Translations under genes and position numbers: made by a program | The notes under the pieces: generated by a model | Database searches by the model: none | Seen by the model: the letters and a program-made list of their open reading frames with translations, nothing else | Told to the model about the DNA's origin: nothing | Part shown: positions 5,477 to 55,961 of the stretch, piece after piece | Position numbering within the stretch: position 1 is the first letter of the stretch | Layout of the letters: each line of letters begins with the position of its first letter | Virus record (IMG/VR): IMGVR_UViG_3300013794_000014 | Location: 77,060-141,059 of that record | Length of the DNA stretch: 64,000 nucleotides | Direction: 5' to 3' (one strand) | Origin: a virus

Positions 5477-5480
5477 AATA

Positions 5481-14700: not shown

Positions 14701-17700
14701 TGTATCTGAGGTACCAAACATTGTACGCATTTCATATTCAATAGGTAAATACCAATGTTTACTAAATACAGAGGTATCAACAGGTGTTTCTCGTGCAATT
14801 TTGTTGTATTTCTCTAATGTTGATTCAATATCATGTACAATTTGTGTTTTCACCTGTACATCTGGGCCTTCTACTTTAATCTGTTTAACAATTTCTTGTA
14901 ACTTCTGTAGTTCGATAACGGCATCATGAATACTCATTTTACCTTCTTCAACTGCAATTTTAATTTCATCTAACGCTAAAACAACCTTATCTAAGTCATT
15001 TAGGTTCGTTGTCGTTGTTCTATCTGTTCCTAATTCTGATTCAGGTACAAATCTGTTTTCTATGGATGTACCATCTATGAACCTACTTTCAGTACCAATT
15101 TCAGGAATACCAAATGCGTGATACTTGAAAACATCAATTATTGTACGTATTTTAGTAAATATAGATGTCTTAGCTGGTTCATTGTCAACTAACGTGGATT
15201 TAATACCTTGATCTGGCCTTTCTTCAATAGTACTAATGTCTACACTTTGAAGTTCAGGCCCACCCTGTGTCGTTGATTTTTCTGGTGTAGTTACTTCTGG
15301 GAAATACTTTCTAACGATACTGTCGTTTGTTGGCACTGTCTGTGGTCCCCAGAAGCTAAGTAAGTCAACAATAGATGTAAGTAACAGTAAGTTTGGTAGG
15401 TATTGTAAAACGGATGACGTAATTGCTGATACATTGTCTACAAGATTAATGAAATGTTGTTTTGTATCAACTTGCAGATCAACTGTCACTACTGATGCTG
15501 ATTCTGATTCTTGTGTTAACATATTTTGTGGTTGTGGTTGTATTGGTGTTGATGTCGACGTATTTTGCATCTGCTGTAACTGTGATTGTAACTGTGGTAT
15601 GAGATTTGTCAATAATCCAACGAAGGCAGAAATACCAATGATTGCACCAGTAAATGCAACTGCATGTATAGGTGAAATTACACCTCTTTTTGATCTAATA
15701 TAATCTTCAAATGCATCTCTATGAATACTCTTATAGTATTCATGTACAAATGACGGTTTTTGATGTATATACCGTTTTTCTAATTGTTGTAAATAGTTAA
15801 ACATATGTGCTAAATTCTCATCATTATGTTGTTTTCTAAATGTACGCTTTGTAATCCTATCGTAGTAACTAGTAGGGAATGCTTTATGATTAGAGTGTGT
15901 TGGTATCTCAGGTAATGTACGTACTCTTCTCCTCTTTTTACTCGTTTTATTTAACTCTATATTTCCGTTTTTAATATGGACTGTCGTTCCAGTAAGGTTA
16001 CTTAATGCTATGATTGCGCTCTGAACTGCTTTTGTAAACCTTTGCAAACTAATACGTGAACGTGATGTCGTCTTAGTATGCAACGTAACGGCCCATACTG
16101 CCTGCATAATACCCGTTACTAATGATCCTAACGTGATTCCTAGTGCTGTGAGCAAATTCATTATACTGAATATCCCTTCGAACATTTGTAATCCTGCTCC
16201 AAATGCTGCACCTCTTGCAGTATCTATTACCATACTAGTAGCTGATTCAACTGCTTCTTTACCTAAAGGAGTTTGTAGTACTTGTTCTCCTAATTTTGTT
16301 AAATGCTGTGTACGTTCGTCTTCTGTAATTTCAAATGAAGCTTGTAATGCGTTTATCATCATCTCTGTTTGTTTAACAATTTCATTGATACGGTATGTAT
16401 ATGATGTACCCATTATATGTGCAACCGTAACAGAATCTGGTAATTCTTGCAAGTTCTTTACCAATAATGTCGGTTCCTCTTTTTCTTTGATCATTGCCTG
16501 TATTGTCTTACTTAACGCTCCAAAGTCAATTTTCAGTCCAAGTACCTTAGTAACAGATAGCAGTAAACTATAAATTGCTGATAATATATCTGCAATTAAT
16601 CCTAACTTTCCAATAATTCTATCAGCCGCTGATGCAACTAATGGTGATTCATATCCATATTTGATATCAACTAACGTTCTTAAGTAAGCTGATGCAGTAG
16701 ACCACGCTAAATATCCTGCCCATTTTTGTTTTGCCGTCTCGTCTTCACCTGGAGCTGCTGCTACAATTTTATTGAATGCTGTTTGTGCTGTCTGTAACGT
16801 TTGTTGTGTAGGTTGTGGTACTGACGTTAGGCGTCCCACTAGCGTTTGTTCTTGCTTTCCAGTTAGTACATCGACAAATTCACTTGGACTTTGATAATAC
16901 GTCGCAACCTCCATTAATGCTGCAAATTCCTTCAATGAAAGACTTGATACAGCTTTTAAGTAACTCATACCTCCTACTGGATGTAATACGTGGTAACTTG
17001 GCATTGAAGCTAATCGTACACCAATTGCTCTAGCATATGCATAAGCGTTTGTTGGTACTTCACCGAAAATCTGATCAAGTTTCTTTTCTACTGCTTGTTC
17101 TGTTCTTCCACCCATATCACGAACACTTTGAATTGACCACATTGACCACATCATACCTAAAGCAGACATTAGAGAGCCTACCAATGTATGAGCAAGCATT
17201 TGAACGCCACTATGTATATGTTTCAAAAACTCCGTTGCGAACGTTGCAGTAGCATATATGTCGGCCCATTTCTCAGAAACGCCTGCATCAAGTAATTGTT
17301 GCCTTGTTTGTTTTTTAATAACCTGTAATTTATGAACAACATCTGCACCAGGACGCTGTGCCAGCTGAGATCCAATTTGTGCACGTGCTTCCTGTACAAG
17401 TTCATTTACACGCTCAGACATCACTTCTGCTTGTTTATTTATCTGTTCACTCGTTTTACTAAACTGTTTTTGTGCTTCTTGTAAACGTCTAGTTAATTCT
17501 GGTATCTCATCCTTCATATTACTAATAGTCTTATTCAATGCATTAAAGTCTGCTATAATCTCACTTAAAGCATCACCTACTGAGGTTATTCTTGGTTCAT
17601 TGAAGAATGGTAAATTTTGTTTAAGCGTTTCTGCAATCTCTTCTTTTGGTATTCCTAAATGCTTATGTAGTAGGTCAATGACGTCATAAATCGCCATACC

Positions 17701-20700
17701 TTCTGATATTTTTTCAACGTCAAATGGTACACCTACGTCTTCTGAAATTTTACTTACAACTTTACGTACTCGATCTACTTGTTGCCCTGTAATAACCCAG
17801 TTTCGTGATTCATAGACAAGTGCTTTTCGATAAATCTCATCAGCAACAGATCGTCCAAATGCTTTTTGTAACGCCTCTTTAATCGTTAAGTTTTTTCTTG
17901 TGCCATACCGTTCTTGTAGCTCCGAAATTATATCTTGCGCATATGAACCTGCTGTCTTTAACTTAAGTCTTGTCTTAATAACGTCTTGAATTTCTGCTTT
18001 TTGCATATGTTCACGTATTACGTTGTAAAATGCAGGACCCAACGCTTCATGTAAGAATAATGCACGAGTTAAAACCCTTTCTTGCTGTGACAATCTTGGT
18101 ACTGCTAAATTTTTAGTGCCAGGAATCTCTTTCAAATCTTCTGGGTATAACATTGCAAACAAAGATAATAGTGAGTTACCGGTATTTTGTTGTTGTAGAT
18201 ATTCTAAATAACGTGGTATATTTGTCTGTCGTATTGTGTCTTGAAGCATTCCTAAGACTAAGTTGGTTGAAACGTGTCTCATACGTTGATTTAACCCTTC
18301 TATAATTGCTGCATGGAATGGTGCTAATTCTGGCCCAAACTGAATAAACGCATCAAGTGTTCTTGATTTCATAATTAAGTTCATTCTGTATAATTGGTTC
18401 AATAAATCCATTGTTGTCTGTACTTGCTGTAACTGTTCAATTGCTGCTTTAGTAAAGTCAAATGAACTTAAGGCACCAGTTGTAATAGTAATAGTACGAT
18501 GTTGCATCAACGGCACTGTTAATTCAACACCTTGTAATGCATGTGCTAAATGTACACTTTTATTTGCCAAATTACCTAAATCTTTTGCAACATCATGTAT
18601 ACTTCTACTTGAACGGCTTGCAATTTCACCTAGTCCTTGAATTACATCAGATAGAACAACTATATTGTCTGCAGCAATTCCAACTGCAAGTCTCAATGAT
18701 TCCCTGACATTTTCGTTTGTAATGAACTCGAACGCTTTTCGTATATCTTTATCTTTTATATGCGGTATTAACTGTTCGAGGTGTGTAATATTCTTTACGT
18801 CTTCAATACCAAATTGTCTAGCTAAATGTGAAATTAAAATACCTTCTGCAATAGTTTTCTGATTTGCAGGTAAGTTTTCGAGTACTCCAATTATAGCGGC
18901 ATAAGTTGTTAAGTTTTCAAGGAAACCACCTTTACCTTCTTCTTTGATTCTTTGTAATGTGCCGTGGAAGACAGAAGCCACATCTTTTGTTTCACGAATC
19001 TTTTCAATCACTGAGGAATATATGTTGGTAGCCAACTCTATATTCATTGCTCCTTCTCTTGCATAACTGTTAATCCGTTCAAAATGATCCTGCATGCTCT
19101 GTAATGCTGTAACGGTTCTAATTAACCTTTCATATGTTGTAACATGTGGTGCAGTAACCAACCTAAATCCTGAATACCAATCACCAGACATTGCAGCTGT
19201 TACATTACGTACAAGATCCTTGAATTTTTCAGAATATTCATGCTGCAAATACTGGCCTTTTGCAATTTGCTTTATAATAGTATCCATATCAACTGCAAAG
19301 TGCTCAGATAAACCTTCTACAACCTCTGAGAATTCTTTTGTAACGACAATTGCTTGTTTTAAAGCCCTTCTGAAGTCTTCAACACTTTGTATCAATGGCC
19401 TATTTCCAACCCAAGCTTTCATTGCAGCTTCCATTATACTACCAACTACTATTGCTTCACCTGGTTTTATTCCTGACGTTGAAGTTGCAAACTCAGAGGC
19501 ATGTGCTAATAAAGTACCAGTTAAATGTTCAATAAGTGCCTTATGCTGTTTAGGTAATGATGATACATAAGTGATAGGCCCAATTGTATTCGGTGTCAAT
19601 ATACGTTCAACTATTTCAGCAATAGCAGTGGCTGTTACTCCGGCCGCAATACCTGCAAACGGATTTGCTGTCAGTAATCCTGTTGCTGCACCGATTGACA
19701 TACCCAACAACGCTTTTAACAAGAATCCACCCTTTTTTGAACCTCCGACTTCTACACCTAACGCTGCATAATGTTCAAATTTATCACCGCGAATTTCTTG
19801 CAATATCTTGTCTAATTGATTCATATCACCTGCGGTTATTTCCTTAATCTGTGAAATATCGTAAATTTCTGTAGCTTTTATTCCAGTTCCATGATAATGT
19901 TCTATTGCATAGAGGAACTTATTACCATGTTCCTGTTTAAGTGCAGTAAGATTCAATAACTGTCCAGCATATTTTGCCTTATACGTATGTCCTAAAATAA
20001 TTATGTCGCCTTCATCGCCTTTATCGCCTTTTTTGCCACTCATTCGTAACTCAACGAATGGAGCCAACTGTATTTGTTCATCAGTTTTTTCTTTTAGATC
20101 TCTAGCAAGGTCCCCCCAATCCTTTTTTATGTCCTCAATACTATGTTGCATTGAAAGTAGTTCGTGGTTTCCGAGTACTAAATAGATGCGCGCATCACCA
20201 ATACGTTTTTTGACATTTTCCCATTCTGATGCAAGTCGTTCTACAAAACTCATTGCACGTTCAGCGTCGTCGGCCCAATCACCAGCCAATATGACGGTTT
20301 TACCAAGTTGCGATAATCTTTCAAGTTGCTGTACAAATTCTTCAAACGATTTTGCATGTAAATCGCCTTGAACAACAATTCTACGTGCTCTTAATTGTTG
20401 TAGTCTAATTTGTGATTCAGCTGAACGGATCATATTTGATATCAATTTAGATGATACTATTGTGTCAATTTGTTCTGGTGTTAAATCTGATTTCTTCAAA
20501 TACGTTTCTAATTGCTGTGAAACATATGTTTGTGGTGATAATCGTCCAGTTTCTCTAGCTTGTTTATAGTATTCCATAATACGTTCAGGTATCCGCAATT
20601 GAGAAACACGTTCTATTAAACCTATGTTTGTAAATCCTATTTCTAAGTTGCTTGGTAACGGTATTTGTTGTCCTGGTCCTAAGGAAATGTAATAATGTCC

Positions 20701-23700
20701 TGCGCCCTTTTCAGTTTTACTTTCTGTTATCAAATTACGTAAAACTTCCCACATGTATACTTGTGCTAATCTGAGATTATCTAAGAACTCCTCTCTGTTT
20801 AATTGCATACCAGAACGCATTTTATTTAATAACTCTAGTACATTAGATGTTGACGTACCAAAGACATGTGAATAAACTACATTTTCGATTATGCTTTCGA
20901 CTTCAGTAAATTTAGCCGGCCCAATACTTTCTACAAGCGTTGATTTTTCAACTTCTCGTAATCTTTGACGAACTTTATCAGTCAACTTGTTTACAACTGT
21001 ATCTAGATCTGTTAACTTTTCTTTTAACTTTTCTTTTTCTTTTTCTGTAACCCCAAGTTTAGTAACAGCTCTATTACCAAGTATATCCGTTATTTTGTAG
21101 TAGCGTATTAACGGACTTTCTTCTGTAGACAAATATGTTGCTAACCTCAGTTCTAATGGTGTCATTATTTTTGTTACAATACGGTCAATTGGTTCAATGA
21201 ACAATTGTGAACTTACAACTGCACCTTTCGCTAGTAATTCTGTAGGAGCTGTTGCTATCGCTGTTGCCTCACCAATGAACTGTGATATTTGTTTTCTGAT
21301 TGATTCTGGGACTTTATACATGTCAACTTGTGCTTCTGAAAGCAATTTAGCTGCTTGCTGGAAATTACCCTCAACCAAATGTTCAAATGCTTTATTTAAC
21401 TTGTCAATTAGTAGTTTCGTGTTAACATCAACTGGACTTGATACAAGTGTGCGCTCAAATTCGTTAAACCTCACTTTCAAATGTTCTGCATACATGCGGT
21501 AAAGGTTGGTACTAGAAATGATCTGGTGTATAATCTCATTAGCCTGTCGTGCAAACTCTATGATCTGCTGTCCACCATCCTTTGTAACTAAGAATAACTC
21601 ATAGAAACCTTTACTGTACACTTCGTCTAGAAACTTAGTGATATAATGCCATTGTTGTCTATAATTTCTAATAAGATTTGTATCAGGTAGTTTCATGTAA
21701 CCAATTAAGTCTTTAATGTGTTGTTCAGATTCAGGTATTTCACTTAAATACTGAGTAATTTGTTGGTATAACTTGCTAATCTTTTCTGCAATGTTTTCGG
21801 GAACGTCGATCAGTAAGTCTTCTTGTCCCAATGCTTGTCTAATAATCCTGTTTACATATTCGTTTGCAGAATACTTACCCATGTCCAAATATCTTGCTAA
21901 GAATAGTGGTGCTGCTGATCTTAAGTTTTGTAAATATGCAGTACGCTTTTCACTAGTAACATTCTGTAATGCTTCATGTACTTTGACTATATGCTGTAGG
22001 TGTCCTTGTCTAATTCCAACGAGTTCAACAAGCTGGCGTACACCTTCATCAAGTTGTACAGTTTCTCCTCGGATTTGTCGTATTTTCTCAATGATTCCTA
22101 CCCTACTCATAAGAATTTCACGTAGTAAGTTCCAGTTAAATTTACCTGGTTCTGTAGCAAACAACTGTGGAGTTCTTGTTATTCTGATTAAATTCTGTAA
22201 GTAAGGCAAAAATGTGTTTATATCTTCTGGCCCAATTTCAGTTTCTTGTAACGACTCATATGTCCTAGTCCATATTTCACGTATATCCGATAAATTCATT
22301 ACATCTTTGACTAAACTTAAGTGTTCCAACGACTTATAGTATTTGAGTCCGAAATTAACAAGATCAATTAGTATATCTAAATCCTGGTCTGAAAATTCAA
22401 TGGAAAGTTTCTGTGCAATTTCTTGTAGATCCTGTAATTCTTGTGTATACTTTTTAAACATCTCCTGGAGTTTTTCACTCTTTTTAATTAAGTCACGGTA
22501 TTCTTCCTTTCGTAACTCAGTGGCTGGAATTCTTGTAACTGTCTGTGATAACACTTTGAACAAAAATTCTTGTCTATCTAGAAGATCTTGTTCGGTTGCA
22601 AATGGCCCTAGTGCTCTAGCCATTTCTTGTAGTACAGGTTCGAAAAACGGTAAAATTTGTTCACGTATCTTTTGATCCTTTCTAGCCAACTTCAAGCGAT
22701 TAATAGCATATAGCACAATATCCTTGAGATATGGTTCTCTCGTAGGTTCTGTTTTAGGAACTTCAGAGTCAACTATATCTTTTATATCTTTTGCAATGCC
22801 TTCTGGCTCTTTCCTTCCATACTGTTCTTTCAAATACTCAACATATTTGTCAAATGCAGCATAGAATTTTTGTATAAACTGTTCTGCTTGCTGTGGCGTT
22901 ACACTGTACAACTGTGAAATTGACTGTACTACCTGATCAATCATTGCTTTAGTTGGGCCAACTTTTGTTGATAAAAGCTTAACACTACGTGCTGCAGCTA
23001 TTTCAGATTCTATTTGATCAATAGTCTCTTTTATCAACGGATTAATTTCTTGTAACTCTTTTATTCGTTTTACAATTCTTCCATCGTACATAGCTAATGC
23101 CTGTGGGCTAAATTGTTCTAATTTCTCAAAGACATCTCTATACCGTTTTGGAAGTTTTTCAAAGAATTCAGGTCCTAGTAACGTCCGTAACTGTTCATAT
23201 GTAGATTTAGCACTTATTGCAAATGCAAGTTCCATTAATTTACGATCAGGAGCAATTTCTAATGCCATACGTCCATAGTATCTACGATCAAGATAAGGTG
23301 AAAGTGGTGTACCTAATACTGGTAGTTCTCGCTCCCATGCACTTATATCTTTCATGTATTTTGTCAATAAGTATTTATCCAAATAATGTGGAAACATACG
23401 TTTTGCATATTCTTTTGGTATCTCTATTCCTTCTGGTGCTCCTTCGCGTGTAAGTTGAGTCAAGAAACCTAATGTCATGAACTCTCCCAACATACGGATT
23501 TTCTGTTGTTCCGGTTTTGTTTTTGGTTTATATCCCATTAACATCGCTACTTCTTCTGCCGTTAATGCTTGTGCTTCGAAACCCATTTCTGACAATTTTG
23601 ATACAATGACATCTAAAAGCTGTTTCACTGTTTTTGGTTTAGAACTTTCCATTACTGCTTGAGTAACTTCTTGACTAATAAGGTACCATACATCAGGTCT

Positions 23701-26700
23701 GATATTACCAAATTTCATAGTTGGTAATTTCGTTGTAGCCGTAGTATGTTTACCAATATATGTCTTAGGTGAAGTTCCTACAAATGCAACTCTATATACT
23801 TGATCCATTACATTGTCCCAAATTTCTGCAATTAACATTTTTCCTCTACGATCCATGAATCGTATATCTCGATAGTTAACACGTTCTATTTGGCCAGTTT
23901 CTAAGTCTTTGACATATAACCTTATTGCTCCACTGAATTCACGATACAGATCTCTAAGATTCTCAAATTTCGTATAAAACAAAACTTGCATCCCTGTTTG
24001 TTCTTTGACAAATTCACTTACACCACGCATATACTCCATAAGTAAACGCTTATTGCCTTTCGGTAGTTGGACGTTCAATTCTAATTCTTTTAGAATATCT
24101 GTACTAAAGTATCCAAATTGTTTGGCTATAAAGTTTGTAAAGTCTATGACTCCTTGAATTTGTGTTAACCAACGATCTAGTTGATGTTTAAATACAGATT
24201 TTTCAATTAATTGTGGGACAGTTGTAAACTTAACGTTCAAGATATCAGAAAACTGTCTAGCAATCAATCGTGTCAATTTACGTGGTGTTACTGCTTGCTC
24301 CAGTTCTACATATGGCACTTGCATTTCCTTTAGCGTCTTTACAATCGTATATGCCTCATAAGCAGATTCTGATTCACGTAATCGCTTAAAGAGTTCTTTT
24401 GCTACCATATCACGTGATTTTACGAGGCCACTGTAAAATGGCCTCAACGTTGGCGGTATAACTGACTTGTCACCAGCAATCCATGCTTTATAGTATATTC
24501 GTTCAAGATCCGATGTCAAAAACATCATTGTTCTTAGAGCAAGTTCCATAGGCGTTGCTAACTTACTAAATCCTGCCCAACGACTTCGTAACGGTACCAC
24601 TCTTTCTGTTATTAGTAAATCTGATAACCACGGATATTGTCTCGTCAAAAATGCAACTACATCAAACCGCTCTCTACTTGTTACGTTACGTGCAGTTAGT
24701 ATCGACTGTACATACTCAATGTCTTTTACAATGTACTCTTTTAGTTGCTGTGTAGTCTTTCCAGCTGATTGACCTAACTCTTCTAATGCTTTTACTACTT
24801 GTTCTAATGCGTGTTTAACTTTTTGTGCGTCTAATAATGGTTCTTTTGGTGAAGTGTATAGTGCCTTGTAAAGATCCATTACTTGAGTTAAAAACATACG
24901 AGACATTTGTCTATGTACATCTTCTGTTATTGGACCTTGATATACTGCTTCTAACTGTTTAACTGATCTTTTAAGTAAATTATTAACTATGTTTTTAAAC
25001 CTTTCATTGACATCTTGAATACCCTGAGACATACCCATCAACTCGGCTAATTCTGTTTGTAAAATTCGTCTAAAGTCTTCAAATAACTTATACTTCCTGA
25101 TTTTCTGAATATCTTCATGACTCAATGATATATCTCCTAAATATTGATCTGTTACATAATCCAAAATAGAACGATATCCAAATAATGGTTCAAGTTGTAG
25201 ATAAATAGCTACGGCAATCGTGGATGGTATATGTAATCGCTGTTTAACAGGATATGCATATTCACTTAACATCTGAGTTGGATCATTACTTGTCGTGATC
25301 GATACACGCATTTTTACATTGCCATTTTTATCAGATTCTATGAACATAAATAAGTCAAAACTACGTGCCCAAACTTTTGCAACGTTAAATATACTGTCAT
25401 CTTTGTACCCCAACATTTGGAATACAGGCCTAAGTGCTTCATATAACAATACAGTCAATAACATCTTATGTGCCTTATAGATTACTACATCTTCCCTTTC
25501 ACGGAATTTATACCATGTATTTTGTACAACGTGATCTCTAATTTGTATTGTACCTAAAGGTAAGTTGTCATCTCTTTTTGTAAATATGGCAAGCATTTTA
25601 TCTTTTAGTTTATCTTTTACAAGTTCTTCTATGATAGATGCCCAAAGTCTTGAACCGGTACTAAGAGGCGCTAATAGTACACCAAGATCTAGTTTCTGCC
25701 TCTCACCCTTCAACAACTGTAAAAATTGTTTTTTAAGTTCATCTACATTTACTAATTGTATTTTGTACTTTAATTCTCGATATTCAGGCAGTTGCTCTAT
25801 TATTTCCTTAAACTTGTCATCAACAACCAGAGTGATAGGCATTGTACCAACAGCTAAGTCCCAGCCTCTTTCCAATAGCATTTTTGCTAGTTCCGCCGGT
25901 ATAGATTCAGTAGGCATTCCTGCAAGGTGGAACATTTTCATTGTTGATTGTGTAAGTCTTTCTCCAAGCAATTTTTGTACTTCTGGTAACAGTCCACCCA
26001 CTAAACTGAAATGCTTGACATCTGCATACACATTATGATTAATTTCAGTAATTTCAATTGTGTTAGCCTTTATTTGAGCTTTTATGTTACCGGAAAATCT
26101 ACTTGTATCAAACAGCTTTTCTAAGTACTCACATTGATCTTCAGTTAATACAACAGAAACAGTATCATACTTTTCTTTAAGTGTTCCTGCTAATTGAATT
26201 TCCTTTCTTGACGCATAATAGATCTTATGTGGTTCTTTCCTGTCGACTACTAATGTAATTTCTTCTGTCGGTGAACCAGCTGTTAATGCGGCATATATGG
26301 CTGGGAACTTAACGTACACATCTACAACTCTGCTTGGAATATTTTGTCTATGTGTATCTTCCGTCCTCTTACCTAAAACGTAAACTATTGGTCCGGCTTG
26401 AATAACTGGCCTAGTTGGCACATTCCTACCAACAAACATTCGTATAGGTAATTGTAGTCGTGACTCACCAGAACCACGTTCAGTTACATAATGTCCTGGG
26501 AACGATGCCTTTTCCACTGTAAGTAACGTCTCTATTGTTGCTTCTAAGAGTTGTACTAGTTGTTCCCGTTCCTGTCTGTTCCGTGTACATAAACGTGCAA
26601 TATTTCGACAGAAGTTCTTGAATTTTGTTTTATCATGCAATTCAAAACCCATATCTTCCTTAAGACTTGGTCTAAATCCGATTTGATACAAGAACCCTAG

Positions 26701-29700
26701 TGTACCACTGTAATCTTCATCTTTATATGTCTTCGGTACTTCATAGGTACGTCCTTCATAACTGAATACTACTTTTGTTAACATGTCATGTATTTGGAAT
26801 CTGAAAGGTTCTAGTCCAACCATTTTCAAGGCGTCTTGTATTACTGCCGTCAAATTACTCATAAGGAAGAGTTCTGTCGTACCATGCTCAAGACGTGTAA
26901 TTGTGATCAGATTACTGTAAATTACGTCAATTGGAATTGTTTTGTTACGTTTTTTGAACTCGTCTATGAGTTTCTTCAAATCACTAGGTACATGTTCCTT
27001 GACCTTCTCATAAAATTCCTCTAGATTAATTTCCAAGAAAGTTGTACGTTCTTTTGCTAGAATTTGTAGACGCTTAATACTTTCTTCACGGATAGCTTGT
27101 TGATCAGCTTTTATACCATACATTGCTGCTAATATCTGTAAATATGCTGAATACAATGATGGCTGTATTTCTCCGCCCTGTCCTTTTTGTCCTGCAGGTA
27201 ATGTCCACTTTGGATTTGCAAATTCGTAGATACCTGTTACTAACATTTGGTATCTACCAGCAACTTTTGTAATTCCCGTGATTATTCCTCCTACTTTCTG
27301 TGGTAACTGTTCTGTAATCACTGAATTGGATTTAGGATCGTATTTGTAAATTACTGTGTTACTATTGACAATTACCGCACGTACTCCAGTTTTCTTTGCA
27401 ATATCTATCAACGACATTCTACCTTTGACATGTTCAACAGTATAGTTATTTCGTACAATATAGAAGTTTTGTAATTCGATTTGTGAAAGGTTTGTTCCAA
27501 GATCTAATGCCTTAGTACTTAGGATTGGTGCTTGTATTTCATATAAGTTTCCGAGTAGGTCTTTAAGTATTTCGTTTACGTTATTAAAACTGAATCGTTC
27601 TTGTACATTCTTTGCAGTTTGTGGATCAAGTTTCTCTAAGGCCTTACTAATAGCAGTTTTCAATTTAGTACGTTTACCTCCAATATTGATCAATACTGCG
27701 TCTTCAATGTTAAAGGCTGTCAAATCAACCATTGCAACGTTAAGTGGTATCTCTTCGCCTTTCCCACCAAATATTGTTAAGTTTGGCATTTTACCAATTG
27801 CTTGTGACCAATTAATAGATTGTCCCCAGTTTTCAAGTAAGTAATTCAAACTCCTTATTAATGCATTATATGCTTGTTTAACCGCAATTTCAACCCTCGG
27901 CATTGTAACATTTGGAACATATGATGTAAGTCCTTCTGCTAACGCCAATGGAATTAACGGCAAATACCCATCGTTAACTGTTACATTTCTTGCCAATTGT
28001 ACTAAAGCATTTTTCAACGTCCTTAGTGCCATATGACTTACGTAATCAAATGAAACTGTAATATGCCCTGCGTATCCACAGTCATTAAGAAGTTTATTGA
28101 GTTCATTTATCTTACTTTGAATAAAAGCTTGAACTTCTGAAAACGACTTTCCATCTGACAACATTTTAACGGCTTCTACATGTATAATTGCTAATCTACC
28201 TGCTACAAGGCGTTTCATGTTTTCAATACCTTCTATATACTTAGAAGAATATTTCGGTTTCTTTATTGGTTGTATATCGTTAACTCCTTTTATCGTTATT
28301 ACAGGAATTGCTAACACATATGGATGTAAAAGTATGTATTCTAATGTCCGATAGTACTCCTTTACATTCTGAACATTAATTTCTGAAAACAGATTTTTTA
28401 ATTCCTTATAATACTTCAATCTTTTTATTTGGTTGTTTAATTGATCAAAGTCCAATTTGCGAATCTTTTTCTGCATGTACTTTTTGATTTTACTGTAATG
28501 CGACATTAACAACTCTAATTCACGCTTCAACTGTATATTTGACTTTACATCATAGATGTCAATTACTGGCAATCCCACCTCCAATGTTAAACTAGTAGTT
28601 GCACGCTGATGTAACAGTACGGTTTTCAACGTCTTGATAGTAGTTCCTGGTTTAACTGACATTTCTTTAATCCATTTTTCAACTTTTTGTGTCAGGTGTT
28701 TAAGGGCTGTTTGACTTGCTCCAAACGTTTCAAGTTCCCCTGTTATATCTAACAGTGTAATCTTTTGTTCAGGACGGAAACTACTTATGCCTTCAATATT
28801 TTGTTTAATATAGAAGTTTGCTTTATCTACTACAATTTCAGCCAATGCATTAATATAGGCCTTACGCTGTTTTTCATCACTTAACGTTTCAATTAGTTTT
28901 TGAAGTTCCTTAGATAATTTTACTTGATCTCCTTCCAATTTTATACCTAAACGTTCTAATTTTGTTTGAATTTGATTCAAGTCTATCTGTTGGCGATCTT
29001 TCTGCAATTCGTTGTATATATTACGCAATTCATTAAGGTTATTTTGTAGACGTGTAAGAAACTCAGGCGAAATACCCATCTTTTTCAATGCATTCTCAAT
29101 TACTTTTAATTTCTCTATAGTTTGCATATCCTCAATAAACTTAGATGGATCGATACCTCTCTGTATCATTTCTACAGCAGCCAACATTACAAACGTATCG
29201 TAATATTGCGCAACTTGTCCTGGTAACGCTACTGCTACACCTCTTAGGAAGATACCTTCAATTTGTTGTAAAGTATTCAATAAGTCATCGTATAGATCAC
29301 CAGTCAATAACGAATGTCGTGTAATTCCAAACGCATATGCTAAATCTCTAATTTTTTCACTATCAGATGCTAATAACTGTGCTAAATTGACTTTTTTTCC
29401 TTTCAGTACTTCACTGACTATATTGTACATTACTTCTGTCATTAGTAACAATGACCCAGAAGAAGCACCAGCTGCTCTTCCAGTCTTTGCGTTAACAAAC
29501 ATAGTAAGAGCCATCATTACAAGATGTTTTGGTTTACCTCTAAGTTTAAGTGCAGCTTGGAATAAACTCCAATCATGTATAAGTAAGTCATCTAGGGACA
29601 TTGTTTTGTTACCAACTTTAACTTGAATCTTACGTGCTTCTTCAATACCAATCCAGTCTTCCAAGATACTGTAGAAGTTAGCACCTAACTCGGAGACAAG

Positions 29701-39304: not shown

Positions 39305-39516
39305 TGGAAACACCCCAAAGACTGATCAAGTGCAGAGACGAAAATAAACGTAAATGTAAATGTAAATACCGATACAGAGTTGGATACTATGAGGTTGACT
39401 TAATAACATTTGAAGTCCGTAAAGTTACCTACTCATTTAATAAACTTGATAAACAAAGTAAATTAAAGGTGGTTAATAAATGGTTAGGTGACATAAATGG
39501 TTCAAGTAACACTTGA
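39289..39516 (+). CDS. small hypothetical protein, head-to-head with terL
   Basis: GGTGA SD before ATG 39289; coupled to the next + ORF. Confidence 0.4.
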   Translation: MDSHTLETPQRLIKCRDENKRKCKCKYRYRVGYYEVDLITFEVRKVTYSFNKLDKQSKLKVVNKWLGDINGSSNT

Positions 39517-51438: not shown

Positions 51439-51533
51439 GAGTGTTAGTTTGTGTTTACGTTTACATTTACCTTTATGTCCAATTTAGTTTTAGTATTCAA
51501 TTACTACTTATTAAATAGAGGTGTGGTTTGATA

Positions 51534-51550
51534 TATTTAAATCTATCAAT
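51534..51550 (+). promoter_or_regulatory. TAYTTAARTNTAYMAAT motif copy
   Basis: TATTTAAATCTATCAAT; related copies at 62621-62637(-), 62652-62668 and 63161-63177. Confidence 0.45.
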
Positions 51551-51572
51551 ATATGGATTTTGGAAATTTCCG

Positions 51573-51613
51573 GATCGGTTTAAAGGAGGGGTCATTTACC
51601 CTACTCACCGATC
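51573..51613. other. imperfect GC-rich stem-loop at the late/pre-early divergence point
   Basis: GATCGGT...GGGT-CATTT-ACCC...ACCGATC. Confidence 0.45.
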
Positions 51614-51641
51614 TATTTGAAAAATCGAGGTATCCCCCCAA

Positions 51642-51662
51642 CCGTCGACACACCATTCAGGC
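51642..51662 (+). promoter_or_regulatory. putative viral-RNAP pre-early promoter 1
   Basis: CCGTC-GACACACCATTCAGGC, upstream of ORF 51681. Confidence 0.65.
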
Positions 51663-51680
51663 AGTAAAAGCATATGTGGG

Positions 51681-51905
51681 GTGAAAACTATGGTAGATAA
51701 GAACGATCAGGAGCTTGTCCGTGCTATCCAACTCCTTAATAAGAGGCTCGAGCGCCTTGAACGTAAGCTCGAGTCTTATAGGAAGGAGGAGGATATGATG
51801 GAGCGGTTCCTGGAAAAGTACCTGGAGCGCCAGGAGCGCTACGAAAAGTGGACCTTCGTCCTCGAACTTGTTACGAGGATGTCAAGGCCTCCTCGCTTCA
51901 GGTAA
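51681..51905 (+). CDS. small coiled-coil pre-early protein (visibly higher GC)
   Basis: GGGGTGA SD, probable ATG 51690; charged heptads. Confidence 0.7.
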   Translation: MKTMVDKNDQELVRAIQLLNKRLERLERKLESYRKEEDMMERFLEKYLERQERYEKWTFVLELVTRMSRPPRFR

Positions 51906-51906
51906 A

Positions 51907-52008
51907 TTACCTTTATTTTTTGTTTTGTTTTAAGGTTCCGACATTTAGTCTTTTTGACCCATTTCTTTTTATTTCACTTAAATAGCCTGGCTGGCATCCG
52001 ACATGCCA
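51907..52008 (+). terminator. T-tracts followed by TGGCAT-CCGAC-ATGCCA hairpin
   Basis: Long T runs after the stop; perfect 6-bp stem at 51992-52008. Confidence 0.5.
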
Positions 52009-52074
52009 AATGACAAAAGAAAAAGAAAAAAGAAGAAAGAAAAAGCAAAAAGCAAAAGAAAAAATAGACAAATA

Positions 52075-52094
52075 CCGTGACATACCCTTCAGGC
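52075..52094 (+). promoter_or_regulatory. putative viral-RNAP pre-early promoter 2
   Basis: CCGT-GACATACCCTTCAGGC, followed by a GAGTAGTCC-TCATT-GGGCTACTC hairpin. Confidence 0.65.
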
Positions 52095-52184
52095 GAGAGT
52101 AGTCCTCATTGGGCTACTCGATGACAATTGTAAACTATAAACTATAAACTACCCAACATTAAAAACTAAACGGGGTGAAAACCT

Positions 52185-52475
52185 ATGGTAGTACCTAACA
52201 GCCCAAATACTAAACTACAGGGCGTCCTAGCCACTATGAGAAGCATCTTGGAGAAAGCAGAAACCAAACTTGATTACATGGACGCCTGTATACCAGAAGA
52301 GTTAGAGCAACAGATTATATCAGCATGTGCTACATTAGCAGGAAATTTAGTAATAGCACTTTGCCCAGAATGTGGTTTCGACTTTGGAGATCTCGACGAC
52401 GACGACGATGAAACCAATGATGAATTACTAGATTTAGAATTAGAATTACTTGCAGATGAAGAGGAGGATGAATAA
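52185..52475 (+). CDS. acidic pre-early protein with CPEC motif
   Basis: GGGGTGA SD; highly acidic C-terminus. Confidence 0.7.
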   Translation: MVVPNSPNTKLQGVLATMRSILEKAETKLDYMDACIPEELEQQIISACATLAGNLVIALCPECGFDFGDLDDDDDETNDELLDLELELLADEEEDE

Positions 52476-52527
52476 CCTCCTCGGATACTATTACAATCTA
52501 CTTTTGATAAATTGAAAAGGTGAAAAG

Positions 52528-52671
52528 ATGAAGTGGGAGATTGTAATAATAGAGAACGAAAATGAAATAGAGTTTGTCAAATATGATGAAGAAGACTACT
52601 TGGATTGTCCAGAATATGGAGATTTCGTAACAGAAGACGGTAAAATACTAAGATTCGGGGAAGACGAATAA
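52528..52671 (+). CDS. 47-aa acidic protein (not in ORF track)
   Basis: AAGGTGA SD; MKWEIVIIENENEIEFVKYDEEDYLDCPEYGDFVTEDGKILRFGEDE. Confidence 0.65.
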   Translation: MKWEIVIIENENEIEFVKYDEEDYLDCPEYGDFVTEDGKILRFGEDE

Positions 52672-52717
52672 GTCTTTCCCCTATTCATTTTTTTTCTAAA
52701 AAAACTATGGTGGTAGC

Positions 52718-53080
52718 ATGCAAAAGGTAGTAACAGATATTGTTGAAATATTAATTGAAAACCTGGCTTACCTACAAGAATTAGATGAAAAACAAAAGAA
52801 ACTAGAAAACGAATTGATTCAAGCACTTAAGGACTTAGGATTCGACTACTTCGTTGCAACAAAACGTCCAGGATACAGACGTGAATACAGAATATTGGAC
52901 AACGAATGTTACGAAATAACCTCCTATGATGAAAACGGATGGATAATAGTCAATATCGTACAAAAAGATATTGCAACATACATTAAAGACATAATAGACG
53001 CTTTAGAATTCCAAATAGAAATGCATGAATATTGTGAACTACAACACAAATTAGAATGTATATTACAAGACTACAAATAA
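52718..53080 (+). CDS. hypothetical pre-early protein
   Basis: 120-aa ORF with GGTGG SD. Confidence 0.7.
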   Translation: MQKVVTDIVEILIENLAYLQELDEKQKKLENELIQALKDLGFDYFVATKRPGYRREYRILDNECYEITSYDENGWIIVNIVQKDIATYIKDIIDALEFQIEMHEYCELQHKLECILQDYK

Positions 53081-53159
53081 ATCTGGGAGGTGATCCAAGT
53101 GGCAAAGAATCAGTACCAGTATCAGTAACAGTAACAATAACAGTAATAGTAACAAGTAA

Positions 53160-53325
53160 CCCTTCTACTTTACTTTGCTATTATTACCTTTACCTTTACC
53201 TTTATTTTTTCTGAGTATAAAAACTAGAACTTTCTTTTTTTTTCATTTTTAAATCCATTTTTTAAAACCCACTTATTGAATTCAGCGCATCCTACATGCG
53301 TCTAATTTCACCCATCCGACATTGG
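53160..53325 (+). terminator. T-tracts followed by two CC(T/G)AC-loop hairpins
   Basis: CGCAT-CCTAC-ATGCG at 53286-53300; imperfect CCCAT-CCGAC-ATTGG at 53311-53325. Confidence 0.5.
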
Positions 53326-53342
53326 CATTAAAATTTGGAAAG

Positions 53343-53362
53343 CCGCGACACACCCTTAAGGC
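53343..53362 (+). promoter_or_regulatory. putative viral-RNAP pre-early promoter 3 (upstream of the RNAP-2 operon)
   Basis: CCGC-GACACACCCTTAAGGC followed by GGGG-TTT-CCCC. Confidence 0.65.
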
Positions 53363-53419
53363 GGGGTTTCCCCAAAATAATAGACAAAATAAATAACAAT
53401 AGAACGAGGTGAATAGAAT

Positions 53420-54022
53420 ATGCAAATTGCAGCTACAGATCTTAACACAACTACATACAAAGTAAGACAACCAGATTTCGGATTAATGTGGAGAAACAAA
53501 CAAACCGGCGAATTCATAAGAATAGGACATACACAATACTTAGCATTACATAAAGTACCAGTTGACAACTGTATACCAACAAAACTAGCAGCACTAGGCA
53601 TTGTACTAGAACCTGAAGAATATAAGACAATAACCAAGATATTCTTACAACATGAAAAGTATGGACAAAACCCAGAACACGCAATAGATCAAATTATACA
53701 AATCAAGAAACTACTCGCAATAAAGTTCCCAGTAAGAAAAGCAGTACTTAGATACTATCCATTCTGTCAAATAGATTTGTTAACACCAGATCAGTTAGCA
53801 TTCATGAACGTTACATTGAAAACCGACATAGAATACGATGCTTACGTCCTCTTCATGACAAACTTATTCACTGAAGAATTCCTAAGACCAGTATTCTTGC
53901 AAGAAGGTGTATCAGACGTTCCAACATTTACATTCGGTGCACAAAGCCAAACAAATGTAACTGCCAATGAAGACGCAGACCTTAAGCAATCATTATTAGA
54001 ACTAATTAGACAACAGAAATAA
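53420..54022 (+). CDS. hypothetical pre-early protein
   Basis: 200 aa; GAGGTGA SD. Confidence 0.75.
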   Translation: MQIAATDLNTTTYKVRQPDFGLMWRNKQTGEFIRIGHTQYLALHKVPVDNCIPTKLAALGIVLEPEEYKTITKIFLQHEKYGQNPEHAIDQIIQIKKLLAIKFPVRKAVLRYYPFCQIDLLTPDQLAFMNVTLKTDIEYDAYVLFMTNLFTEEFLRPVFLQEGVSDVPTFTFGAQSQTNVTANEDADLKQSLLELIRQQK

Positions 54023-54149
54023 CAGAAATAACACAATGTAACATAACATAACATAATATAACATAATATACATACTTTCCTTCCTTTCCTTTTATTTTTA
54101 CAATTAATGACATTTTCACAACTAATGACATTTGACAAAGGTGGTTACC

Positions 54150-54608
54150 ATGAGAATCATCAAAATAGAAAACCCAATATATACACATGTTAAAACCTTA
54201 CCTGCAAACGTTATATCACGCATATTACTTGACCTACGAATTCTGTGTAGTGGATACAATGAACTCGGTATAACGGCACAATCAAACATTGCATACGAAA
54301 TCTATGACTTACTTGAACGTGACGAAAAAACATATTTGTTCAACGTCACAAACTTCGACCCAAACCTACTTTCGCAATGTACAGATAACATTCGAAGAAA
54401 TTCAACAAAACCTGCCTACCTTGTCTACAACCACTTAGAACGCCTAGAAGTTGAACAATCTATGTACCTAAAGAAGTTCTTACCAATATATCCTGAAAAC
54501 GACAACTTATTCTTACGTCAATGCTTACAATCTATAATAGAAAACATAATGGAAAACAAAAACAAAAATAAAAGAGGTGATAACAATGCAAACTTTAGGT
54601 GGGAATAA
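54150..54608 (+). CDS. hypothetical protein upstream of RNAP-2 (possible accessory subunit)
   Basis: AGGTGG SD before ATG 54150; overlaps the start of the beta'-like gene. Confidence 0.65.
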   Translation: MRIIKIENPIYTHVKTLPANVISRILLDLRILCSGYNELGITAQSNIAYEIYDLLERDEKTYLFNVTNFDPNLLSQCTDNIRRNSTKPAYLVYNHLERLEVEQSMYLKKFLPIYPENDNLFLRQCLQSIIENIMENKNKNKRGDNNANFRWE

Positions 54609-55956
54609 CAACACATACATAAAAGAAAAGATTCAACAGATAACCTCAGATAAAAGAGTCCAAAGAATAATAGAGGTTTGTAGACAACTTAATAGAGCCG
54701 ACACCGATAGACTCATAATGATGAACATATCATTATCTGATAAAGAATGGACAGAGATATTCAAAGATGCAGTAGACAAATTGACAAAAATACATGTACC
54801 AACAATATACGGTAAAGTTGTCCAAATAGACTATGAAAATCTTGTGATGCTTCCAATAGAAGACAAAAACCGTTACAAAGTACTTGTCCTAGAAGAAAAA
54901 GACAATATGCTCCAAGTAACCGACATAAAAGACGCCAATAACTTCGAAGAAAATGAACTATTAGCATTAGTTGGTAGACACCCCTTCGTAGATACTCTCG
55001 GATGGATAATGACAAAAGTAACATTCAGTAAGGAACTCAAAGAAGTCATAGGAATTGGACAAAAAACATGGAAACAAAGAGGTGGAGACTTCGACGGAGA
55101 TGCAGCAATGATCATATTGCTTAAGTTACCAAAGAAATACTATGACAAATATGTACCAGAAGTAACTAGAAGCACATATAGATCACATGAATACATTAAG
55201 TTACCGAAGAAATCCAGTAAAGCAGTAATCAGCATAGAGTTCAACGACTTAACAATACCGAAGGTTGAATTCCACTATGTAAAAGACAACAAATGTAGAA
55301 TCTTTCCAGAATCCATAAGTCATTTGCAAAACTTAGAGACGTTAACTGGTGCTATACTCATGGCAATCAATATAGCGACAAACTATCGTGTCAAATGGAC
55401 TAAACAACAATTGAAACGTAATACAGAAATGCTCATAACAGCAATAAAACAAGAACTACAAACATTGAAACAAAGAAATCCACAGTTATTTGCAAAATAC
55501 GCAATAATCTTCAGTAAAATACATCCAACATTTCTACAAATAGTGACACCATTACTGTTCATTGACAACATCGACCTAGAAATGTACCAAGCAATACTAA
55601 GAGTACACATAAAAGACAAAGGTCCAAGTCTATTCGGATACCTTGAGAAAGTCTTCTTGAGTGTTGCACAAACCAGAGAAGACATTGAACGCGTACTTAA
55701 GTACATATCGAAACATCAACAGAAAGTCATTGACATGAAGAAAGCAGAACATTCACTATTAGACTACAATGAAGCGTTGATAAGTAAGAATAAAGAACAA
55801 CTAAAAGAATCAGAATTAAAAGACTTGTATGAAAGGTGGAAAAATGTAGATGCAAACTGGAGTAAAAACAAATGGCAACTCCTAGTATACGGAAAAACAA
55901 ACGACATAATAGACTTACTTGCTGCTATAGTCCATAAAATCTGTTATGAGAGGTGA
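54586..55956 (+). CDS. minimal RNA polymerase beta'-like catalytic subunit (RNAP-2)
   Basis: LVGRHP (RxP) followed about 35 aa later by QRGGDFDGDAAM (codons 55087-55101). Confidence 0.8.
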   Translation: MQTLGGNNNTYIKEKIQQITSDKRVQRIIEVCRQLNRADTDRLIMMNISLSDKEWTEIFKDAVDKLTKIHVPTIYGKVVQIDYENLVMLPIEDKNRYKVLVLEEKDNMLQVTDIKDANNFEENELLALVGRHPFVDTLGWIMTKVTFSKELKEVIGIGQKTWKQRGGDFDGDAAMIILLKLPKKYYDKYVPEVTRSTYRSHEYIKLPKKSSKAVISIEFNDLTIPKVEFHYVKDNKCRIFPESISHLQNLETLTGAILMAINIATNYRVKWTKQQLKRNTEMLITAIKQELQTLKQRNPQLFAKYAIIFSKIHPTFLQIVTPLLFIDNIDLEMYQAILRVHIKDKGPSLFGYLEKVFLSVAQTREDIERVLKYISKHQQKVIDMKKAEHSLLDYNEALISKNKEQLKESELKDLYERWKNVDANWSKNKWQLLVYGKTNDIIDLLAAIVHKICYER

Positions 55957-55961
55957 TCCGA

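What the first reader, a model, noticed from the sequence alone, without database searches (positions are those of the whole stretch)
51642..53373. Three copies of a 16-bp GACAYACCMTTMAGGC motif: candidate virion-RNAP promoter
Seen: GACACACCATTCAGGC (51647), GACATACCCTTCAGGC (52079) and GACACACCCTTAAGGC (53347). Each is preceded by CCG(T/C), is intergenic, has the same orientation and heads a gene group. Two are followed directly by hairpins that could sit at the transcript 5' end. The motif is neither TATA-like nor sigma70-like, and I saw it nowhere else in the window. Inference: promoter of the tape-measure-fused RNAP.
Basis: partly seen in the sequence, partly recalled or inferred. Interest (0 to 1): 0.8.

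Follow-up and report, generated by a model that had tools for sequence, protein, structure and literature searches.

The report
Candidate early promoter, archaeal virus polymerase
Three copies of a conserved 24-letter DNA signal each stand in front of one of the first gene groups of a 141-kb virus of deep-sea-vent methanogens, and most likely tell a virus-carried RNA polymerase, not the host's, where to start; this gives a concrete test of whether an archaeal virus transcribes its own genes.

Summary
The 16-mer occurs exactly three times in the window and in the complete 141,059-bp genome. All copies are on the + strand and intergenic, at the start of the + strand gene block. A matrix built from 12 instances in five diverged relatives widens it to about 24 nt (CCGY-GACAYRCC-NTTNNGRC-GRRA). 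It scores the three sites at 25-40 bits, and nothing else in the genome exceeds 8.

At the homologous position in five viruses it is the only conserved intergenic island besides the ribosome-binding site. In four of the five, a hairpin with a different stem sequence begins exactly at the G after the 16-mer, which suggests the RNA starts there.

The three copies alternate one-to-one with three strong T-tract clusters, each followed by a small hairpin, giving three units. Their 5.5 kb of coding sequence has no T4 run (12.4 +/- 3.0 expected). Host-like Methanococcales genes and the rest of the virus tolerate T-runs. The third unit encodes a miniature two-subunit RNA polymerase.

Best reading (0.55): pre-early promoters of a non-host polymerase, most likely the tape-measure-fused one. 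That assignment is by elimination only. Earlier notes of this scan concern this genome alone.

The parts
51642..51666 (+). Motif copy 1 (P1), extended element: CCGTC, the 16-mer 51647-51662, then 4 nt. It heads unit 1.
   Evidence: 24.8 bits. The homologous site in L004 shares a 16-nt upstream block; spacing to the ATG is 27 nt here and 28 nt in L004.
52075..52098 (+). Motif copy 2 (P2): CCGT, the 16-mer 52079-52094, then GAGA. It heads unit 2.
   Evidence: 37.5 bits
53343..53366 (+). Motif copy 3 (P3): CCGC, the 16-mer 53347-53362, then GGGG. It heads unit 3.
   Evidence: 40.0 bits. It is the only conserved island in the five-virus alignment A2.
52097..52119 (+). Hairpin at the start of the unit 2 leader, beginning 2 nt after the 16-mer.
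   Evidence: -15.2 kcal/mol
53363..53373 (+). Hairpin starting at the first base after the 16-mer of copy 3 (inferred RNA 5' end).
   Evidence: The same position carries different stems in L006, L012 and L015.
51690..51905 (+). Unit 1 gene (71 aa, ORFan).
52185..53080 (+). Unit 2 genes (96, 47 and 120 aa). A T8 run at 52688 lies between the second and third.
53420..58159 (+). Unit 3 genes: a 200-aa gene orthologous in seven viruses, a 152-158-aa gene, a beta'-like gene (54577-55956, GGDFDGD), a beta-like gene (55953-57083), and 144-aa and 173-aa genes.
51916..51971 (+). T-tract cluster ending unit 1 (5 runs of T4 or longer).
51992..52008 (+). Hairpin after the unit 1 T-cluster (6-bp stem, CCGAC loop).
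53205..53264 (+). T-tract cluster ending unit 2 (T6, T9, T5, T6).
53286..53325 (+). Two hairpins after the unit 2 T-cluster (loops CCTAC and CCGAC).
58185..58229 (+). T-tract cluster ending unit 3 (7 runs, the largest in the genome).
58237..58251 (+). Hairpin after the unit 3 T-cluster (5-bp stem, CCGAC loop). No motif follows it.
54090..54117 (+). Weaker internal T-tracts (T4, T5, T4) inside unit 3, without a hairpin or a motif; possible attenuator.
57529..57554 (+). Weaker internal T-tracts (T4, T5, T5) inside unit 3.
11800..32670 (-). 6,956-aa protein: RNA-polymerase catalytic domain at the N-terminus, peptidase and tape-measure-like C-terminal part. It is the proposed reader of the motif.
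   Evidence: Pfam RNA_pol_Rpb1_2, 3.7e-7; PHROG peptidase and tape measure; NLDYDGD at residues 388-394; hydrophobic segments at 5356-5691

Best explanation
The three elements are promoters of three short pre-early transcription units: U1 about 51663-51975, U2 about 52095-53265, U3 about 53363-58230. They are read by a virus-encoded polymerase, not by the host's TBP/TFB-dependent enzyme. The most likely reader is the RNA-polymerase domain at the N-terminus of the 6,956-aa tape-measure-like protein, delivered with the DNA. Recognition is of a linear, asymmetric sequence of about 20 bp. RNA probably starts at the purine (mostly G) just after the 16-mer. Each unit ends at a cluster of T-tracts followed by a small hairpin. 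This enzyme appears to stop at runs as short as four T, so such runs have been purged from the coding sequence. U3 makes a miniature two-subunit polymerase that would take over later genes. Shown: uniqueness, placement, conservation, T-run purge, host baseline.
For: Uniqueness: 3 copies in the 141-kb genome against 0.06 expected. The family matrix gives 25-40 bits for these sites and at most 7.9 elsewhere.

Placement: the copies lie at the start of the + strand block, beside the divergent junction.

Conservation: there are 12 instances in five viruses whose neighbouring proteins are only 26-71% identical. All are on the + strand, intergenic and upstream of genes. The element is the only conserved island in the intergenic alignment.

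Start site: a hairpin begins exactly after the 16-mer in 4 of 5 viruses at the P3 position, each with a different stem.

Units: three motifs alternate with three T-clusters plus hairpins, and these hairpins occur nowhere else in the genome.

T-run purge: 0 T4 runs in 5,526 coding nt against 12.4 +/- 3.0 under a synonymous shuffle, with 0 of 3,000 shuffles as low. Phe TTC:TTT is 44:16 in the block against 599:1239 elsewhere. The rest of the virus sits at 0.9x expectation. Methanococcales genes have 1.6-9.2 T4 runs per kb and are never free of them.

No conserved TATA upstream.

Two relatives carry a different conserved motif at the same place, and the class does not follow the mini-polymerase tree.

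The giant protein has an intact NLDYDGD motif.

Precedents: P23-45 and N4.
Against: There is no transcript data, so the start site and termination are inferred. Nothing shows that the giant protein is packaged, injected or active.

About a third of the instances have an A/T-rich stretch where an archaeal TATA box would sit if RNA starts at the G. A hybrid host-dependent promoter is therefore not excluded.

T-run depletion is strong in only some relatives (L012, L014, L015) and weak or absent in others that have the motif (L004, L006).

Internal T-tracts inside U3 precede the polymerase genes without a following motif, so read-through has to be assumed.

All relatives are short contigs, so co-occurrence of the motif with the giant polymerase could not be tested.
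Confidence: 0.55

Rival explanations
1. Host-dependent promoter plus operator. The archaeal host polymerase, with TBP and TFB, starts at the same G using a weak A/T-rich box about 26 nt upstream. The conserved 20 nt between box and start is the binding site of a viral or host regulator that switches the early units on or off.
For: Four of 11 instances have 7-8 A/T in the eight bases just upstream of CCGY, at the right distance for a TATA box if RNA starts after the 16-mer. The ends of the element form a partial CCG...CGG inverted repeat in most instances. Archaeal polymerases also stop at oligo-T. One early gene shows a weak winged-helix match (E 0.002, below the curated cut-off).
Against: The upstream columns carry at most 0.4 bits. 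Window copy 1 and L015-1 are G/C-rich there. The core is asymmetric, and the CCG/CGG ends show no consistent compensatory change. Host-like genes tolerate T-runs, so host transcription does not explain their complete purge from this block. Two relatives have replaced the whole element by another one, which is typical of polymerase-specific promoters.
Confidence: 0.15
2. A promoter of another viral polymerase. The miniature two-subunit enzyme encoded in U3, or the second miniature enzyme encoded at window 1-1348, reads the motif, for example as a self-amplifying loop. The first round comes from elsewhere, such as the TATA-like element at 51530-51556.
For: The genome encodes more than one non-host polymerase. 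A TATA-like recurrent element lies 110 nt upstream of copy 1.
Against: A polymerase made from U3 should mainly serve the roughly 90 kb of later genes, yet the motif is absent there and those genes tolerate T-runs. The motif class does not follow the mini-polymerase phylogeny: L013 nests in the clade of the window with 100/99 support but has the other motif. That rests on only two viruses. The model also leaves the virion-type polymerase without a target.
Confidence: 0.12
3. An RNA-level signal. A long transcript from an upstream promoter is cut at or next to the motif, leaving 5' hairpin-protected mRNAs. The motif is a nuclease or RNA-binding site, not a start site.
For: Hairpins begin right after the motif, as they would at a processed 5' end. 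Copy 1 lies downstream of other promoter-like elements.
Against: Large T-clusters precede copies 2 and 3. The purge of T-runs from coding sequence indicates that these clusters stop the polymerase, so each unit needs its own start. No Rfam family matches; the best hit is 18 bits against a threshold of 45. The motif itself has no fold.
Confidence: 0.08
4. A DNA site unrelated to transcription, such as a replication, packaging or partition protein site that happens to lie between genes.
For: Clustered repeats near one genome end can serve such roles. A 610-nt repeat-rich non-coding region lies 5.7 kb downstream.
Against: The sites have strict orientation with the genes, one copy per unit, a short and conserved distance to the ribosome-binding site, and a conserved position upstream of an orthologous gene in five viruses.
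Confidence: 0.04

Closest known systems
Pre-early promoters of Thermus phage P23-45, read by the tape-measure-fused virion polymerase gp96 (Chaban et al. 2024, PMC10770324)
   Same: In both, the polymerase is fused to a giant tape-measure protein. A strongly conserved motif lies upstream of the first-expressed genes and is kept in relatives. Those genes include a second, non-virion polymerase. The units end at terminators with their own conserved feature. The promoter composition contrasts with that of the genome.
   Different: There is no sequence similarity between the motifs. The P23-45 motif is AT-rich with 14 mapped copies; this one is relatively GC-rich with 3 copies. The host here is an archaeon, not a bacterium. 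A complete purge of T4 runs is not reported for P23-45. Nothing here is mapped experimentally.
Coliphage N4 early promoters P1-P3, read by the injected virion polymerase (Lenneman and Rothman-Denes 2015, PMC4496689)
   Same: Both have three promoters in a short region near one genome end and about 18-20 conserved bases ending at the start site. In both, the early genes encode a heterodimeric second polymerase.
   Different: N4 promoters must form a DNA hairpin (inverted repeats around a GC-rich centre at -11). This motif has no hairpin potential, with z-scores of -0.65 to +0.96. The N4 enzyme is T7-like, whereas this one is a two-barrel cellular type.
T7-type promoters of single-subunit phage polymerases (from general knowledge)
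   Same: Both are linear, asymmetric elements of about 20-23 bp that run up to a G-rich start. Lineage-specific variants are mutually exclusive, as with the two motif classes here.
   Different: The enzyme family is unrelated. T7-type promoters serve middle and late genes, and the enzyme is not carried in the virion.
Archaeal TBP/TFB promoters (BRE plus TATA box about 26 nt upstream of the start)
   Same: The start is inferred to be a purine after a pyrimidine. Some instances have an A/T-rich stretch at the right distance.
   Different: The A/T-rich stretch is not conserved (at most 0.4 bits), while the 20 nt downstream of it are. This is the reverse of a cellular archaeal promoter.
Oligo-T termination by archaeal RNA polymerase and eukaryotic Pol III (from general knowledge)
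   Same: T-tracts on the sense strand lie at gene ends, with no need for a preceding hairpin.
   Different: Here runs as short as T4 seem to be avoided entirely inside genes, unlike in host-like genomes. The strong clusters are also followed, not preceded, by a conserved-loop hairpin.

Membership tests
Virion-polymerase (pre-)early promoter class (N4, P23-45, phiKZ-like) | The virus encodes an RNA polymerase as part of a structural (virion) protein. | tested here: met
   Pfam RNA_pol_Rpb1_2 at residues 229-399 of the 6,956-aa protein. Intact NLDYDGD motif. Peptidase and tape-measure matches and membrane-type segments in the C-terminal part. The gene lies in the structural block beside terminase and tail genes.
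Virion-polymerase (pre-)early promoter class (N4, P23-45, phiKZ-like) | The polymerase is physically present in virions and delivered into the cell. | not testable with these tools
   Needs virion proteomics or a western blot.
Virion-polymerase (pre-)early promoter class (N4, P23-45, phiKZ-like) | A conserved motif lies directly upstream of the first gene groups, is co-oriented with them, and is absent from the rest of the genome. | tested here: met
Virion-polymerase (pre-)early promoter class (N4, P23-45, phiKZ-like) | The motif is kept in related viruses at the same positions. | tested here: met
   12 instances in 5 viruses. Two further relatives carry a different motif at the same place.
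Virion-polymerase (pre-)early promoter class (N4, P23-45, phiKZ-like) | The units it heads encode the next-stage transcription machinery. | tested here: met
   Unit 3 encodes a beta'-like protein with GRHP and GGDFDGD, invariant in 9 homologues, and a beta-like partner. Activity was not tested.
Virion-polymerase (pre-)early promoter class (N4, P23-45, phiKZ-like) | Transcripts start at a fixed distance from the motif, early and without new protein synthesis. | not testable with these tools
   Indirect support only: hairpins begin at the first base after the 16-mer in 4 of 5 viruses at P3.
Virion-polymerase (pre-)early promoter class (N4, P23-45, phiKZ-like) | The promoters lie in the part of the genome that enters the cell first. 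| tested here: inconclusive
   The block is 6-12 kb from the right end of a record with a 92-bp terminal repeat. Two other long assemblies end within about 0-115 bp of the same point. Physical ends are not proven.
N4-type hairpin promoter | Inverted repeats form a 5-7-bp hairpin around a GC-rich centre upstream of the start. | tested here: not met
   DNA folds of six instances give -0.1 to -3.8 kcal/mol and z-scores of -0.65 to +0.96 against shuffles.
Archaeal TBP/TFB promoter | A conserved TATA box and BRE lie about 23-35 nt upstream of the start. | tested here: not met
   Columns -12 to -8 carry at most 0.4 bits. Window copy 1 and L015-1 are G/C-rich there.
Bacterial sigma70 promoter | -35 and -10 hexamers at 16-18-nt spacing. 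| tested here: not met
   24 consensus matches in the region against 32 +/- 6 in shuffles; none lies at the motifs.
Known structured RNA family (Rfam 15) | A match at the curated gathering score. | tested here: not met
   Only one sub-threshold hit, 18.3 bits against a threshold of 45.

The most novel reading that the evidence does not exclude
A tailed virus of Methanococcales carries a self-contained pre-early transcription system. It would consist of a TBP/TFB-independent promoter of about 24 nt, T-tract-plus-hairpin terminators, and an injected tape-measure-fused polymerase so prone to stop at U-tracts that T4 runs have been purged from its target genes. This would be the first virus-specific promoter, and the first host-independent start of transcription, known for any archaeal virus.
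Probability: 0.5. Interest if true: 0.85.

Novelty: new variant of a known kind. Interest (0 to 1): 0.68.

Why it matters
Papers describe archaeal viruses as relying on the host transcription machinery. Other notes of this scan report polymerase genes in this virus, but a gene alone does not show a working system. This finding adds the matching cis-elements: a defined start signal, defined unit ends, and a sequence signature (no T4 runs) that marks exactly which genes a special enzyme reads. That turns the claim into a bench test: short templates, one recombinant fragment, and clear positive and negative controls. The T-run purge is also a new and cheap computational marker. It could be used to find genes read by termination-prone viral polymerases in other genomes.

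Tried and rejected
1. Protein-guided scans of the viral collection, with the mini-polymerase alone and with a 9-sequence profile, found no relatives.

None of the 122 loci has GC below 42%, and none is homologous to the early proteins. These are chance hits.

3. Ten further contigs carrying the identical mini-polymerase are 100% identical to the window across the block, apart from one gap in one contig. They give no within-lineage variation.

4. The N4-style hairpin promoter is rejected.

5. I considered whether the terminator hairpins could be the promoters. One of them is followed by T8, T9 and T6 and no gene, and copy 1 has none upstream, so they go with unit ends.

6. The CCGAC loop resembles the CCG(N)GACA start of the motif, but the loops in relatives differ (CCATCA, CCATTC) while their motifs do not. 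I dropped this as coincidence.

7. The CCG...CGG ends do not behave as a stem; there is no consistent compensatory change.

8. Internal T-tract sites (54090, 57529) were searched for degenerate motif copies. None was convincing.

9. Sigma70, bacterial intrinsic-terminator and Rfam scans gave nothing above chance.

10. In one search two small genes were read out of frame. One search repeats the shuffle with corrected starts; the redraw figure of 28.8 +/- 3.9 comes and is approximate.
Full report
THE OBSERVATION
Allowing two mismatches, the window has these three matches and no others, against 0.06 expected; no shuffle out of 100 gave more than one. The window is the last 64 kb of a complete 141,059-bp virus record with a 92-bp terminal repeat and 33% G+C. 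The whole genome has the same three copies and none on the other strand.

GENOME CONTEXT
A greedy ORF map shows a long minus-strand block (window 11800-51438) with terminase, tail-type genes and a 6,956-aa ORF. A plus-strand block begins at 51681, right after the divergent junction. The three copies sit at the very start of that plus block.

The giant ORF matches Pfam RNA_pol_Rpb1_2 at residues 229-399 and has an intact NLDYDGD metal-binding motif at 388-394. It also has peptidase and tape-measure matches and membrane-type segments in its C-terminal part.

The virus's TyrRS is closest to the Methanocaldococcus jannaschii enzyme (8e-116). Its 15 best matches among cellular genomes are all Methanococcales at 60-65% identity, followed by Methanobacteriales at about 50%. 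A vent Methanococcales host is therefore probable, and the host polymerase would be TBP/TFB-dependent.

RELATIVES
The gene at 54577-55956, about 1.2 kb downstream of copy 3, encodes a protein with GRHP and GGDFDGD. Its neighbour has a beta-like G-x-K...QKH segment. Eight homologues at 43-85% identity exist on short metagenome contigs, and the catalytic residues are invariant in all nine.

The contexts of these homologues are syntenic. In four further viruses (L004, the L005-L008 group, L012, L015) the motif recurs on the + strand, in intergenic DNA, directly upstream of genes. That makes 12 distinct instances.

The instances define an element of about 24 nt: CCGY, an invariant GACA, then YRCC-NTTNNGRC, then G and purines. 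A weight matrix from them scores the window's sites at 40.0, 37.5 and 24.8 bits; the best other position on either strand of the genome scores 7.9.

The 200-aa gene after copy 3 is orthologous in all seven viruses examined, at 24-46% identity. In the five-virus alignment of its upstream region, the element is the only conserved island apart from the Shine-Dalgarno and ATG. Fourteen of the 39 invariant columns fall within those 22 nt.

At the copy 1 position, the window and L004 share a 16-nt upstream block. Spacing to the ATG is 27 nt in the window and 28 nt in L004. The small genes after copies 1 and 2 are mostly unrelated between viruses, so the signal persists while the genes it heads turn over.

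WHERE THE RNA PROBABLY STARTS
At the copy 3 position, four of five viruses have a hairpin whose first paired base is the G immediately after the 16-mer. The stems differ: GGGG/CCCC, GGGA/UCCC, GGAGG/CCUCC and GGAGGA/UCCUCC. Copy 2 has a -15.2 kcal/mol hairpin starting two bases later. The position is conserved while the sequence is not, which is what 5'-terminal protective stem-loops would look like. I infer a start at that purine; this is not shown.

THREE UNITS
On the + strand between 51559 and 58185, every run of four or more T lies between genes. The three largest clusters (51916-51971, 53205-53264, 58185-58229) are each followed within 9-23 nt by a small hairpin with a CCGAC or CCTAC loop and CAT/ATG-type closing pairs. 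Hairpins of this form occur nowhere else in the genome.

Relatives have hairpins at the same place with different stems and related loops. Three motifs therefore alternate one-to-one with three hairpin-marked T-clusters. The hairpin after unit 3 is followed by no motif, so the hairpins belong to unit ends, not starts. Weaker T-tracts inside units 2 and 3 (52688, 54090, 57529) lack hairpins and motifs and may attenuate transcription.

Six of about ten intergenic sense-strand T-clusters in the genome lie in or just after this 5% of it.

THE T-RUN PURGE
The ten genes of the block (5,526 nt) contain no T4 run on the coding strand. A synonymous-codon shuffle within each gene gives 12.4 +/- 3.0; the minimum was 2, and none of 3,000 shuffles was as low as 0. 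Redrawing codons from the usage of the rest of the genome gives about 29. Codon choice is shifted accordingly: Phe TTC:TTT is 44:16 in the block against 599:1239 elsewhere, and T-ending Ile, Val, Tyr and Ser codons are also rarer. A-runs are normal.

Every other block of the virus sits at about 0.9 of expectation and even has T-clusters inside genes. Genes in twelve Methanococcales loci have 1.6-9.2 T4 runs per kb, with observed/expected of 1.1-1.5 in eight of them.

So neither host transcription nor the polymerase(s) reading the rest of the virus demands this purge. Something special reads exactly the stretch headed by the motifs.

Caveat: among relatives the depletion is strong in L012, L014 and L015 but weak in L004, L006, L009, L011 and L013.

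WHICH POLYMERASE
The element has no conserved TATA box. Columns -12 to -8 carry at most 0.4 bits, and only 4 of 11 instances are A/T-rich there. It is not sigma70-like, has no hairpin potential of its own and matches no Rfam family.

Two relatives (L013, L009) carry a different, mutually similar element (AAACGGG-N-GG-N-AGGGT-GGGT) at the same place upstream of the orthologous gene. That element is absent from this genome. Such exclusive, lineage-specific alleles are typical of promoters of virus-encoded polymerases.

The allele does not follow the tree of the adjacent mini-polymerase. L013 nests with 100/99 support among viruses that have the first motif. A polymerase made from unit 3 should also have many targets among later genes, where the motif is absent.

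By elimination, the fused polymerase of the structural block is the best candidate. The layout then mirrors P23-45. There a tape-measure-fused polymerase reads a conserved motif before pre-early genes, those genes include a second polymerase, and the terminators have their own motif. [quoted passage not shown]

The P23-45 enzyme is described as flat and lacking a clamp. A similarly minimal enzyme here could explain extreme sensitivity to weak rU:dA hybrids. This is inference.

WHAT REMAINS OPEN
There is no transcript, virion or enzyme data. The host-dependent hybrid, another viral polymerase, and RNA processing remain possible; I put them at 0.15, 0.12 and 0.08. Co-occurrence of the motif with the fused polymerase could not be tested, because all relatives are short contigs and the viral collection holds none.

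Other recurrent upstream elements exist elsewhere in the genome: tandem TTTACR hexamers and a TATA-like element. This fits several promoter classes for several polymerases, but I did not assign them.

NOVELTY
Virus-polymerase-specific early promoters are a known kind. This would be the first in an archaeal virus. It has a new sequence, a one-to-one terminator module, and a complete T4 purge that I have not seen described. No paper in the library describes this virus group.

Noticed in passing
window 39354-39372 (-), 51454-51475 (+); genome 32834-32858 (+), 26895-26909 (-), 69641-69654 (+): Tandem hexamer arrays (TTTACR)n lie in intergenic DNA. Several are co-oriented with, and 33-53 nt upstream of, genes including terminase. 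They are a candidate second promoter or regulatory class.
   Followed up: partly
window 51530-51556; also genome 553-570, 2105-2122, 35173; window 32720 (-): A recurrent TATA-like, partly palindromic element containing ATTTAAAT. One copy lies 110 nt upstream of motif copy 1 in the divergent junction. It is a possible host-type or other-polymerase promoter.
   Followed up: partly
L013:128-150 and L009:517-540: A different conserved G-rich element lies at the position of motif copy 3, upstream of the orthologous 186-213-aa gene, in two relatives. It is absent from this genome, so it is a second promoter allele in the virus group.
   Followed up: partly
window 59080-59687; L004:6610-7069; L005:5593-6217: A long repeat-rich non-coding region lies just after the early block in three viruses. 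It has short direct repeats (GGRACATT-type here, CTACTCCCCA-type in relatives). It is a candidate origin, packaging site or terminus.
   Followed up: no
genome right end (window 64000): Two other long assemblies of the same virus (141,022 bp and 133,892 bp, other sources) end within about 0-115 bp of this record's right end. The ends may therefore be physical, with the motif block 6-12 kb from one of them.
   Followed up: partly
window 58247-58471: This 74-aa ORF contains T8, T9 and T6 runs and follows the unit 3 terminator hairpin. It is probably not a gene.
   Followed up: partly
window 51560-51640 and L004:1000-1075: The region upstream of copy 1 is about 70% conserved between two viruses whose proteins are about 50% identical, including an identical 16-nt block (AAAAATCGAGGTATCC). 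Its function is unknown.
   Followed up: no
L004:7496-8158: A LAGLIDADG homing-endonuclease gene lies just beyond the early block in one relative.
   Followed up: no
window 52657-52696: A 9-bp hairpin is followed by a T8 run after the 47-aa gene. It is the only bacterial-style hairpin-then-T element inside the block.
   Followed up: no
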